Positions 29,746 through 52,003 of a stretch of DNA of 64,000 nucleotides are shown here, piece after piece; the first letter of the stretch is position 1; each line of letters begins with the position of its first letter. Position numbers and translations under genes: made by a program. The notes beneath the pieces were generated by a model. That model was not told the DNA's origin, made no database searches, and saw only the letters and a program-made list of their open reading frames with translations. Origin of the DNA: Mustelus asterias (Eukaryota); assembly GCF_964213995.1 (NCBI RefSeq), contig NW_027590805.1, positions 1 through 64,000 of the forward strand, read 5' to 3'.

Positions 29746-29791
29746 ATGAACTCGGCGATTTCTCTCAGTTTGTTGCTGACTTTCTTATCCG
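29746..29791 (+). CDS. IGHV: IgM VH leader exon (MNSAISLSLLLTFLS-G)
   Basis: Hydrophobic signal peptide, phase-1 donor GT at 29792; an alternative in-frame ATG lies at 29734. Confidence 0.9.
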
Positions 29792-29918: not shown

Positions 29919-30226
29919 GTGTCCAGTCGGAGATTGTGTTGACTCAGCTGGAGGCAGAAACAGGGCGTCCCGGCGGCTTCCTGAGACTGACCTGTAAAAC
30001 CAGTGGCTTCGATCTTGGCAGCAACTGGATGAACTGGATTAGACAGGTTCCCGGACAGGGGCTGGAGTGGTTGGTTGGATACAGAAGTTCATTTTACACC
30101 ACCTACTATGACCCACAGATTCAGGGCCGATTTACTCCGTCCAAAGACCTTTCGAACAATATCTTCGCTTTGGACATGATGAGCCTGAAGACTGAAGACA
30201 CCGCCATCTATTACTGTGCAAGAGAC
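29919..30226 (+). CDS. IGHV: IgM VH exon, intact and unrearranged
   Basis: Acceptor ttttacag; [52 protein letters not shown]...[11 protein letters not shown], with both Cys and the core Trp. Confidence 0.96.
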
Positions 30227-30265
30227 CACAGTAAGAGGAACCAGGGCTGGACCTCAACAAGAACA
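30227..30265 (+). other. VH 3' recombination signal (23-bp spacer)
   Basis: CACAGTA - 23 nt - ACAAGAACA. Confidence 0.92.
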
Positions 30266-30633: not shown

Positions 30634-30709
30634 AGTTTTTGTGCGGGCGTGTCTCACTGTGATACAGCAGTGGGTGGGTGGCACAACAGTTACTGTCAAT
30701 ACAAAAAAC
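30634..30709 (+). other. Single DH segment (30662-30681) flanked by two 12-bp-spacer RSSs
   Basis: AGTTTTTGT - 12 - CACTGTG | ATACAGCAGTGGGTGGGTGG | CACAACA - 12 - ACAAAAAAC. Confidence 0.9.
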
Positions 30710-31016: not shown

Positions 31017-31055
31017 GGTTATTGTATGAGCCAGCCCAGGGAATGTGACACTGTG
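31017..31055 (+). other. JH 5' recombination signal (23-bp spacer)
   Basis: GGTTATTGT - 23 nt - CACTGTG. Confidence 0.92.
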
Positions 31056-31103
31056 ACGCCATGGATTACTGTGGACAAGGGACCATGGTGACGGTGACTG
31101 CAG
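31056..31103 (+). CDS. IGHJ: JH segment AMDYCGQGTMVTVTA
   Basis: xGQGTMVTV motif, phase-1 donor G|GTAAG at 31104; the usual Trp codon is TGT (Cys). Confidence 0.93.
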
Positions 31104-35270: not shown

Positions 35271-36584
35271 TCCTGAATCTGTTATTTTCGATTGCTCATT
35301 TTCAGCGAAATTACATTTTTACTTAGTTTTCGAGAAGTGAGACAGAGAAATAATTAAAAATTGACAGGAGTTTTGGAATGAATATCAGTTTTATTTAAAA
35401 GAGGTTATTGATTTTCTGTTGTTGTAAGTTGTTCATTAATCAATTAGAATCGAACAGTTTGAATGAAATTGACAGATTGAACAGACATATCTGCTGGGAA
35501 ATCGATTGTTGCACCGTAATGTGTCTGTTGTCCGCGTGGTCACCGTGTTGGTGCCAGGAATCTGCCTGACTGGTTGTAAATCTTCTGGTTCCTTCGCCTG
35601 TATTTCAGGGAGTGAAATTTGATTTATTTCTTCAATACACTTGTACCTGTGAGAAATGTGACAGTTTGACTTGATGTTTGATTTGGCGTCTCTGAAATTA
35701 GATCCCTAAAGCATAATGTTACCATGAGAGAGAGAGCAGAAACGTCAGACTGGAGCGGGAGAATTGGGTGATTTTTAAGCAGTGATGTACCTGCCTTGGG
35801 AATGCTCGATGAGCAAATGGAAAGTGAGATTTACTATATTGTACTCCATACTAGAGCAGTCCCTAACCTGTTTAGTAGGACAGTTGGAGGGTCAAATTCA
35901 TTTGCATCTTATTTTTAATCTTCTAAAGGTATTTTAGAGTCATTTGCTCGGCCAGAATTTTTAATCTTCCCGAATTGTTCCTTGAGAAAGTGTTGATATG
36001 AAGCATCTTTGAATAACTGCAGTCCATATGCTGCAGGCATCCGCCGTGCTGTTGGGCAGGCAGTTCCAGGATTTTCACCCAGCGACAGTGAAGGAACTGA
36101 GATATTGTTTCAAGTCAGGACGGAGGGGAGCTTGCAGGTGGTAGTGTTCATATGTGGCTGCCGCCCTTGCCCTGCTAGGATGTAAAGGCAGCGGGCTTGG
36201 ACAATGTTTTCTATGGAGCCTTGGTGAGTTGCTGCAGTGCATTTTGTATATAATACACACTGCTGATACTGCTTGTTAATGATGGAGAAAATGAATAGGA
36301 TGAATGAGAGGGCGGGTAACCTTATGGGCTACCTTACCTGAGCGTTACCTTATGGGCGACTTAGCCCTGGATTGTGTCAAATTTCTTGAGTTTTAACAAG
36401 TTTCGCTCATTGAGGAAAGAGGAAATTATTCATTGTGACTGACTTGTGAAAGATTTAACTGTTTTTCTAACCTTTGACCCGCAGTCCGTATTGTGCTCAC
36501 ATATCACTCCCACTGACTGTGTGAGTGGGTGAGTTTGTGTGGAGTGAGGGTGCTTTTCCAAACTGAATCAGCCAGCTAGAGACT

Positions 36585-37694
36585 TACACACATCACACAT
36601 TCTCACACACATAAATACACACATATACACTCTCATATTCTCTCACACATGCACACATACATACTCAGACTTACTTACCCTCTCATACGATCTCTCTCAC
36701 AAACCCATAGACATTCTCTCTGTCTCACGTTCTACATACACTCTCAAATACAAATGCATACATATTCTCGCTCTCTCAATCAATCTCTCACACTCCCATA
36801 CACAAAAGCACTCACACACACACACACCCATACACATTCTCTCTTACACGCAGACGCACACTCTCACATAAGCACAGTCTCACACTTTCGCACACGCACT
36901 CTCACATGCACTCTCTCTCCCACACTCTGTCACACACGCTCAAGCTATCTCACATTTATTCACACAGGCTCTCTCACAATTCCTCTTGGACACGCATCTC
37001 TCTCTCTCTCTCTCACGCACACACGCATATATTTCTATTTCTCTTGCACACACTATCTCACACCTGTACATTCTTGCTCTCACACACTGGCTCTCTCACA
37101 AACACTCTCTCACAAACATAGAACATGCACACACTGTAACACACATTCTTACACACAGACACAGTCTCTCACATAAGCACAGTCATACGTACACATTATC
37201 CCTCACATACACACACACACACACATGCACTATCCCTCTCACATTCCCTCTTCCGTACTCTCATTCCGTCTCACACTCATTCACACACACACACGCACAC
37301 ACATGCACTATCCCTCTCACATTCCCTCTTCTGTACTCTCATTCCGTCTCACACTCAGTCACATACTCTCTCTCATACGAACACTTGCACACGCATTCTC
37401 TTACATAGGCACATATTTCTCTCTCTTTCACACGCTCACTTCCTTACACATTGTCTCACAGATGCACAATCTTGCTCTCAAATACTGTCTCTCACAAACA
37501 CCCTCCCTTTCACACACACACAGTCTCGACATCTCTCACACACGGACACACATGTATATGCAACGTATCTCTCAAACACTCCACCTATCACAGGCACATG
37601 TTATCTCAACGGTTATTTCACTCACACACACTCACATATCCATTCTGTCTAAGTTTCACACTTTTTGTCGCTCACACACACTCTCCCCGCCCCT

Positions 37695-37763
<69 letters not shown>

Positions 37764-37998
37764 GTTTGAAGAACAGAGACATACTCTCACATAAATAAAG
37801 AATAACTCTTCAAACACACTCTCTCTCTCTCACACACAGACACACACATTTTCTATCTCACATATCCTTCCTCTCACGCACACTCTCTTTTCTTGCACGC
37901 ACAAAGCTCTCATGTGTCTGACCCACTCTCACACACATAAACACACACAACGTCTCTCTCTCTCACACAAAAACTCTCTCACGCTCTCTCTGTCTCTC

Positions 37999-38050
<52 letters not shown>

Positions 38051-51744: not shown

Positions 51745-51866
51745 ACTCCACAGACCGCATCTGGACTGAAGGCAATGAGGATGATACCATCTGTACAACC
51801 GCTTCCACATTCATCTTCCTGTTCTCCCTGAGCATTTTCTACAGCACTGCTGTCACTCTGGTGAAG
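51745..51866 (+). CDS. IGHM: IgM transmembrane exon TM1
   Basis: cctctag acceptor, phase 1; DSTDRIWTEGNEDDTICTTASTFIFLFSLSIFYSTAVTLVK (CART motif); donor AAG|GTGAGA. Too short for the ORF track. Confidence 0.93.
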
Positions 51867-51994
51867 GTGAGATGATTCAATTCACTCACACGTCAAACTG
51901 ACAGAAAAATCTCAAAATTTCATTGATTAAAAACTCCAACATAAATTTCCCAGAACATAAACATCTGTTTCATTATTTTATGTCTCTTTTCCAG

Positions 51995-52003
51995 ATCAAG
52001 TGA
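51995..52003 (+). CDS. IGHM: IgM TM2 exon (IK*; cytoplasmic tail KIK)
   Basis: tctcttttccag|ATC AAG TGA, 128 bp after TM1. Confidence 0.88.
   Translation: MK

What the first reader, a model, noticed from the sequence alone, without database searches (positions are those of the whole stretch)
30634..30709. Only one D, flanked 12/12: candidate germline D1-D2 join giving a tetrapod-like V-D-J layout
Seen: V(23)...(12)D(12)...(23)J, with no further RSS pair between 30265 and 31017. V-D and D-J gaps are about 370 and 310 bp and the D is 20 nt. Known: the standard shark IgM cluster is V(23)-(12)D1(22/23)-(12)D2(12)-(23)J, and germline-joined shark clusters (VD-J, VDJ) are attributed to germline RAG activity. 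Inference: the 5' RSS plus ATACAGCAGTGGGT look D1-derived and the GGGTGG plus 3' RSS look D2-derived (from memory of shark D segments). This would be a heritable D-D coding joint that still needs somatic V-D and D-J joining, a less commonly described state.
Basis: partly seen in the sequence, partly recalled or inferred. Interest (0 to 1): 0.7.

Follow-up and report, generated by a model that had tools for sequence, protein, structure and literature searches.

The report
Repeated inherited D-fusion in shark IgM
This shark antibody (IgM) gene carries one diversity piece made from the ends of the usual two, likely joined in inherited DNA by the immune cut-and-paste enzyme RAG; near-identical sister copies carry a different join and a further second-step join, which extends a known shark habit in a gene that is likely decaying.

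Summary
The window is a complete shark IgM cluster laid out V(23)-(12)D(12)-(23)J. Its 20-nt D is all 14 nt of D1 plus the last 6-7 nt of D2, with no added bases; the left flank is D1's and the right flank D2's. The assembly has four copies of this subfamily, 99.65-99.97% alike over 33 kb: two with this join, one with V joined onto the same join (VDD-J), and one with an independent 17-nt D1-D2 join. One short-read run holds the 20-nt join at about single-copy depth, plus a third, 14-nt form. So the join is most likely heritable and RAG-made, and this lineage was joined repeatedly. It was not seen in the two other samples, one of which hints at an unjoined D2. Single-D is not the norm, but joining is common: 38 of 84 IgM loci examined are partly joined. 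The gene looks relaxed (J Trp-to-Cys, non-consensus leader donor). Germline D-D fusion is published for IgNAR; somatic V-DD-J for IgM. The tetrapod-like layout is derived, not ancestral. This scan already noted similar fusions on other DNA of this genome.

The parts
29746..29791 (+). VH leader exon; its splice donor reads GTGATT where 69 of the 79 loci read have GTGAG
   Evidence: GTGATT in 4 of 79 loci, which I take to be the four copies of this subfamily (the call printed counts, not names)
29919..30226 (+). VH exon, open frame, both cysteines present
   Evidence: (best PDB matches are antibody heavy-chain V and VHH domains)
30227..30265 (+). V 3' RSS, 23-bp spacer
   Evidence: V was joined to the fused D in sister copy L006
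30634..30661 (-). D1-derived 5' RSS, 12-bp spacer
30662..30681 (+). Fused D: D1 (30662-30675, complete) plus D2 3' end (30676-30681); one base of possible overlap; all three forward frames open
30682..30709 (+). D2-derived 3' RSS, 12-bp spacer, heptamer CACAACA
31017..31055 (-). J 5' RSS, 23-bp spacer
31056..31103 (+). JH; the Trp codon of WGxG reads Cys (31070-31072)
   Evidence: Cys in the 4 copies of this subfamily and in none of the other 77 loci with a J
43259..43558 (+). C-mu 1 exon, open
44537..44842 (+). C-mu 2 exon, open
45765..46073 (+). C-mu 3 exon, open
46561..46952 (+). C-mu 4 exon with secretory tail (penultimate Cys)
   Evidence: (best full-length single-stretch PDB matches are Ig heavy constant mu)
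51745..51866 (+). TM1 exon, open; 6-nt deletion and W>C, V>I, F>S against one unjoined paralogue
51995..52003 (+). TM2 exon

Best explanation
The single D is a D1-D2 coding joint in a shark IgM cluster (V-DD-J), likely made by RAG in a germ cell and inherited, and likely kept by drift in a cluster under relaxed selection. Shown: the D1 and D2 origin of the two halves and of the flanks; loss of the whole inner 22-RSS/12-RSS pair; no added bases; the same join in two contigs and nested inside a V-to-DD join in a third; a different D1-D2 join in a fourth copy 99.7% alike. Inferred: RAG cut at D1's 3' 22-RSS and D2's 5' 12-RSS, about 364-380 bp were excised, D2 was trimmed by 5-7 nt and the ends were ligated without TdT. 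The cluster was then duplicated, and one copy underwent a second join of V to the fused D. Predicted: a B cell would need only V-DD and DD-J joins (23/12 and 12/23), giving a CDR3 with two variable junctions instead of three. The product would carry Cys in place of the J Trp and is likely poorly used.
For: Flank and junction tests. A random deletion in the V-J interval puts both ends inside D1 and D2 with probability 0.0003, or 0.0015 among 300-450-bp deletions. Four subfamily copies and no unjoined member in G000. C104 has the same join and differs from the window at 49 of 33,608 sites; C110b (VDD-J on the same joint) differs from C104 at 9 of 33,164. The 17-nt join in C110a keeps D2 bases that the 20-nt join lacks and lacks D1 bases that it keeps, so neither derives from the other. 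Run X1 has a contig across the 20-nt join at depth 15.5 against 62.8 for the D-J interval; the VDD-J joint stands in X1 (7.8) and X2 (17.6 of 78.5). A second nested series exists: L015 unjoined, L004 V-DD-J, L079 VDD-J on the same joint, with upstream flanks of L004 and L015 99.9% alike. Other joined junctions of G000 (L080/L081, L066/L078, L105) recur in sample S2, which carries other alleles. Somatic nurse shark joints are each unique, with N/P additions (PMC2435157 section 10). Germline RAG-like joining is published (PMC2193156). Signs of relaxed selection.
Against: The 20-nt join was laid in 1 of 4 runs (X1), and its nested form in X1 and X2, which are one sample and may be the source of the assembly. 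It was not seen in X3 or X4, where the D1 flank has a coverage hole. X3 has a contig with an intact 13-nt D2 running into this subfamily's D-J interval: either an unjoined allele, or a graph chimera through 32 nt shared with other paralogues. The 17-nt join was not seen in any run. Tissue is unknown for all runs. The joint alone is not diagnostic of RAG: no P nucleotide, and it can be read as a TGGGT microhomology deletion followed by a 4-nt slippage. The assembly also holds joined TCR-delta segments (L122, L123), so some joins in it may be somatic. All exons are open, so 'decaying' is not proven. Defects were found in 8 of 35 joined against 1 of 46 unjoined loci, but 4 of the 8 are these copies.
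Confidence: 0.78

Rival explanations
1. An inherited deletion made without RAG: microhomology end joining or unequal exchange between the similar D1 and D2 units, then a 4-nt slippage.
For: D1 and the 12-nt D2 share TGGGT, and the two 5' heptamers plus ATA are identical; the joint has a possible 1-nt overlap and a GGGT tandem. The old joins L082/L112 end in or next to the shared heptamer.
Against: Exchange at the shared heptamer would leave an intact D2, and exchange at TGGGT would leave 16 nt, not 20. The sister 17-nt join and the second-step V join use other coding-end positions, and both remove exactly one 12/23 signal pair. The joined states in the census all pair a 12-bp with a 22/23-bp signal.
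Confidence: 0.1
2. A somatic lymphocyte rearrangement captured in the assembly; V-DD-J is a known intermediate in shark thymocytes and B cells.
For: PMC2435157 passages list somatic V-DD-J. The tissue is unknown. The join was not seen in X3 or X4. The assembly holds joined TCR-delta segments.
Against: The same N-less joint is in three contigs whose flanks differ at 9-50 sites per 33 kb, one of them with a further join. Short-read depth is about a quarter of the subfamily's D-J depth, which a single cell cannot give.
Confidence: 0.07
3. The join is germline but adaptive: a two-step cluster with a fixed D core that rearranges faster and serves early life, like IgNAR type III.
For: [quoted passage not shown]
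Against: The copies carry different joints rather than one conserved core. The J Trp-to-Cys change is shared by all four copies and by the X3 contig, so it likely predates the joins. One copy has its leader exon broken by an LTR element.
Confidence: 0.1
4. A primitive single-D cluster, a relic of a tetrapod-like V-D-J ancestor.
For: The spacer order 23-12/12-23 equals that of tetrapod IgH (recalled).
Against: The D is D1 plus the D2 end with hybrid flanks. Two different junctions exist in copies 99.7% alike.
Confidence: 0.02

Closest known systems
Nurse shark IgNAR type III cluster with germline D1-D2 fusion (PMC4622739, passages); bamboo shark IgNAR2, 5 and 6 with pre-joined D segments (PMC8692893, passages)
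   Same: D-D fusion in genomic DNA while V and J stay unjoined; one somatic join fewer.
   Different: Here it is an IgM cluster going from two D to one. Several junctions coexist in near-identical copies, one with a second-step join, and the gene shows signs of decay rather than a described neonatal role.
Partly germline-joined IgM clusters of horn shark and skates: VD-J, VD-DJ, VDJ (PMC5192425, PMC4279169, PMC6795676, passages); VD and VDD (PMC2193156 discussion)
   Same: Inherited partial joining in IgM miniclusters, attributed to RAG in germ cells. This assembly holds these states too.
   Different: The passages I read name no germline V-DD-J state for IgM. The original reports (Kokubu 1988, Harding 1990) and the Hsu 2016 review were not held, so it may be in print there.
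Germline-joined NS4 (kappa) light-chain genes of nurse shark (PMC2193156; abstract, introduction, results part 2 of 2, discussion part 1 of 2, figure legends part 1 of 2)
   Same: Joined and split genes closely related; several independent joins; RSS fully excised; ends trimmed.
   Different: There the joins were widespread in the animals tested and judged infrequent, and H-chain junctions were too diverged to dissect. Here H-chain copies are 99.7-99.97% alike and show an order of steps.
Somatic V-DD-J intermediate of nurse shark IgM in thymocytes and B cells (PMC2435157; passages and section 10)
   Same: Identical layout; no strict order of joining.
   Different: Somatic joints are unique and carry N/P additions. 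This one has none and recurs in three contigs.

Membership tests
Elasmobranch IgM minicluster | One VH, D segment(s) and one JH with RSS, in one orientation | tested here: met
Elasmobranch IgM minicluster | Four C-mu exons, secretory tail and TM exons downstream | tested here: met
   C4 with tail matches Ig heavy constant mu
Elasmobranch IgM minicluster | Two separate D segments (12/22 and 12/12) | tested here: not met
   one fused D; 46 of 84 loci examined have two
Functional IgM gene | J with WGxG Trp and consensus splice sites | tested here: not met
   Trp reads Cys; leader donor GTGATT
Functional IgM gene | Productive transcripts | not testable with these tools
   no RNA holder listed
RAG coding joint | Inner 12 and 22/23 signals fully excised, outer signals intact | tested here: met
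RAG coding joint | Breakpoints at or a few bases inside the coding ends | tested here: met
   D1 14/14 kept, D2 at most 7/12 kept; chance 0.0003-0.0015
RAG coding joint | P or N nucleotides | tested here: inconclusive
   none in this joint; their absence is compatible with RAG but not diagnostic
Germline-joined Ig cluster | Present in bulk DNA at constitutive dose | tested here: met
   X1 depth 15.5 of 62.8; nested form in X1 and X2; tissue unknown, contig depths are rough
Germline-joined Ig cluster | Copied with the locus into diverged copies | tested here: met
   same joint in C773, C104 and C110b
Germline-joined Ig cluster | Shared between animals, or present in sperm or erythrocytes | tested here: inconclusive
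   not seen in X3 or X4, which have coverage holes; X3 hints at an unjoined D2
Tetrapod IgH translocon | Arrays of many V, D and J sharing the C genes | tested here: not met
   one V, one D, one J per cluster; 82 J matches spread over many clusters

The most novel reading that the evidence does not exclude
RAG is still editing this shark's germline step by step and the products segregate in the population. One IgM cluster lineage exists as an unjoined form, as three different D1-D2 joins (20, 17 and 14 nt) and as a second-step VDD-J. That would mean roughly one heritable join per million cluster-generations, about a thousand times the per-base mutation rate, without TdT, and measurable as new N-less joints in sperm.
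Probability: 0.4. Interest if true: 0.65.

Novelty: new variant of a known kind. Interest (0 to 1): 0.4.

Why it matters
Whether RAG is active in shark germ cells today, how often, and whether joined clusters are selected or are by-products has been open since PMC2193156. That paper could not dissect heavy-chain joints because they were too diverged. This subfamily gives near-identical heavy-chain copies with two, possibly three, independent D1-D2 joins and a nested second step, so order, trimming and rate can be studied with a few PCR assays. The single join taken alone is an ordinary example of a known habit, and the gene is probably of little immune use.

Tried and rejected
Expression: no RNA holder was listed, so nothing can be said.
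Second-animal test: X3 and X4 have no cover over the subfamily's D1 flank, and X2 lacks contigs over the V-DD-J junction itself. Holes prove nothing.
Allele or paralogue: C773 and C104 are colinear for about 105 kb with falling identity; C110a and C110b follow for 80-90 kb. Spot checks further out found no match, so this stayed open.
The V-region tree is unreliable for L003, L020 and L112 (insertions or mis-cut rows) and was used only for tight clades.
I first suspected that the TM1 splice acceptor was lost; one search shows the AG intact.
The Fisher test on defects (p = 0.004) is not independent and was not relied on.
Junction parsing fails for old, mutated joints (L083, L068, L076, L077, L101), so no genome-wide N-nucleotide count is claimed.
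Papers not held: Hsu 2016, Kokubu 1988, Harding 1990. PMC2191167 and PMC2192082 are held as short records (about 10,000 characters) and the terms sought gave nothing useful. No supplements were read; Table 1 and Figure S1 of PMC2435157 may bear on junction comparisons.
Searches for a printed germline IgM V-DD-J. Only the somatic form and the IgNAR fusions came up.

Full report
What is there. The window holds one complete elasmobranch IgM cluster on the + strand: leader 29746-29791, VH 29919-30226, one D, JH 31056-31103, four constant exons with a secretory tail (43259-46952) and two TM exons (51745-52003). The V matches antibody heavy-chain V domains and the fourth constant exon with its tail matches Ig heavy constant mu. 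The D 3' heptamer has three mismatches to the recalled consensus, but unjoined paralogues carry the same heptamer behind D2.

The D is a D1-D2 join. A search of the window's own genome split most paralogues into two matches at the D. A J pattern gave 82 matches. I examined all 82 plus three loci without a J match, left out one contig-end fragment without V (L118), and classified 84 loci. Of these, 46 are unjoined V-D-D-J and 38 are partly or fully joined: 11 VDD-J, 9 V-DD-J plus 2 decayed ones, 9 VD-D-J, 3 V-D-DJ, 2 V-DDJ, 1 VDDJ and 1 IgH-D1/TCR-delta join. Haplotype duplicates are included, so these are loci in an assembly, not genes. In the 32 of 46 two-D loci that the script parsed, the commonest D1 (24 of 32) equals the first 14 nt of the window's D, and the two commonest D2 forms (29 of 32) end in its last 6 nt. 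The 150 nt left of the D match D1's 5' flank (median 0.89) and not D2's (0.46). The 150 nt on the right match D2's 3' flank (0.83) and not D1's (0.44). The missing piece, 364-380 nt in paralogues, is the 22-RSS, the spacer DNA and the 12-RSS. The joint has no unmatched base and at most one base of overlap. A random deletion would land both ends in the two D segments with probability 0.0003-0.0015.

The subfamily. Subfamily-specific patterns in V and at the J signal, and an intron probe, find four copies and no unjoined member. C773 (the window) and C104 carry the 20-nt join. C110b (L006) has V joined onto the same joint: V keeps up to 5 of its last 9 bases, the fused D keeps up to 13 of 20, and no base is added. 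C110a (L003) has a 17-nt join, D1 kept up to 8/14 and D2 up to 10/12. Each of the two joints holds parental bases that the other lacks, so they are independent events (inference). Over about 33 kb the copies differ at 49 (window-C104), 50 (window-C110b), 9 (C104-C110b) and 95-117 sites (C110a against the others). The nearest unjoined paralogues are only 88.6% and 84.5% alike in the V-D and D-J intervals, so an unjoined form of this old subfamily likely lasted until after C110a split from the rest. With the epaulette shark rate of 7e-10 per base per generation (PMC10587355, abstract; another data set, so an assumption), the upper bounds are about 2-2.5 million generations for the two joins and about 0.2 million for the second step. 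Gene conversion between copies could distort both. Whether the copies are alleles or paralogues was not settled.

Reads. Four runs of contigs from at most three samples of one study were laid twice. The VDD-J joint, which contains the same D1-D2 junction, stands in X1 (7.8) and X2 (17.6 of 78.5). X1 also has a contig at depth 34 with this subfamily's left flank and a D 6 nt shorter (14 nt), a form not in the assembly. It may be a third join or a small deletion from one of the others. X1 and X2 are one sample and may be the assembly's source, so they are not independent support; they show dose in bulk DNA, not inheritance. Against my reading: the 17-nt joint was seen in 0 of 4 runs and the 20-nt V-DD-J joint in 1 of 4. 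X3 has a contig in which an intact 13-nt D2 runs into this subfamily's D-J interval with two other alleles, which is either the unjoined allele or a graph chimera through 32 shared bases. For the class as a whole, three other joined junctions of the assembly (L080/L081, L066/L078, L105) appear in X3, which supports inheritance of such joins.

How it works. Shown: a D1-D2 junction at coding ends with the inner 12/22 pair gone, copied into diverged copies and extended by a second 12/23-obeying join. Inferred: RAG cleavage and end joining without TdT in a germ cell or early germline cell, as proposed for shark light chains (PMC2193156, sections named under Closest known systems). A second series points the same way: L015 (unjoined), L004 (V-DD-J) and L079 (VDD-J on L004's joint) form one tight clade (100/100), with L004 and L015 99.9% alike over 10 kb upstream. 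Predicted: in a lymphocyte the cluster would finish with two joins; V cannot join J directly (23/23); CDR3 would have a fixed core, open in three frames. The gene looks relaxed. The J Trp reads Cys in all four copies and in none of the other 77 loci with a J; the X3 contig shows no difference at that codon, so the change likely predates the joins. The leader donor departs from the common form in 4 of 79 loci. TM1 has several substitutions against the one paralogue compared. C110a has an 11.1-kb LTR element in its leader exon. All frames in the window are open, so this is an ORF-grade gene, not a proven pseudogene. I favour drift over selection.

Comparison. Germline D1-D2 fusion is in print for nurse shark IgNAR type III (PMC4622739, passages), and pre-joined D segments for bamboo shark IgNAR (PMC8692893, passages). 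Reviews list VD-J, VD-DJ and VDJ for germline IgM (passages). V-DD-J is in print as a somatic intermediate (PMC2435157). Seven literature searches found no germline V-DD-J IgM cluster, but the three papers most likely to hold one were not available. The likeness to tetrapod IgH is the spacer order only (recalled). Earlier notes of this scan report D1-D2 fusions on other pieces of this genome; they are unchecked AI notes and are not counted as support.

Verdict. A real feature and a new variant of a known kind. The join alone is ordinary for this genome. What lifts it is the series in one near-identical subfamily: two, perhaps three, independent D1-D2 joins and a nested second step. Three or four events over a few million generations of branch length would give roughly 1e-6 joins per cluster per generation. 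This is a back-of-envelope inference that assumes neutrality and the borrowed mutation rate, but it can be tested in sperm. Interest 0.4.

Noticed in passing
L029 (G000:C138, about 217,660-218,170); L119-L124: An IgM V-D1 is joined to a TCR-delta-like D followed by a TCR-delta-like J, with D1 intact and no added bases. The D's 3' signal occurs at 15 places in the assembly, several on contigs that carry IgM clusters. The TCR-delta label is recalled from the J sequence. Earlier notes of this scan describe the same layout.
   Followed up: partly
L122 (C401), L123 (C850): TCR-type V segments already joined to that D, with extra bases at the joint; germline or somatic not tested.
   Followed up: no
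L041-L042 (G000:C110), in the leader exon of the 17-nt sister copy: An 11,107-bp LTR retrovirus-like insertion with two identical 766-bp LTRs and a short target duplication; a 1457-aa frame has protease, RT, RNase H and integrase matches. It is absent from the other three copies, so it is recent.
   Followed up: partly
L015 (C127), L004 (C306), L079 (C667): A second stepwise series: unjoined, V-DD-J with an 11-nt D, and VDD-J on the same joint. The unjoined member has a mutated D1 3' heptamer (CATAGTG) and all three have a mutated J heptamer.
   Followed up: partly
L009 (C166): A two-D cluster whose D2 slot, between normal D2 signals, holds the same 11-nt D1-like sequence as the fused D of L004; possibly gene conversion from a joined cluster.
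   Followed up: no
L083, L086, L089, L104: An older V-DD-J family with a 23-nt D and a mutated V heptamer, in four copies.
   Followed up: partly
84 IgM loci of G000: All six partial joining states and one full VDDJ join occur in one assembly. Several young-looking joints have no added bases, while a few (L066/L078, L068, L073) appear to have many.
   Followed up: partly
window 31070-31072: The J reads CGQG instead of WGQG. Type I IgNAR J segments also have Cys at this place (recalled), but this V has no extra cysteine and keeps the GLEW light-chain contact motif, so a point mutation is the simpler reading.
   Followed up: no
window about 36,500-41,400 and 47,900-49,800: Long CA-rich simple repeats in the J-C intron, and broken frames between C4 and TM1 that look like LINE reverse transcriptase fragments (recalled likeness).
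   Followed up: no
L020 (C420): An unjoined cluster whose V exon loses similarity upstream of CDR2, likely through an insertion or rearrangement.
   Followed up: no
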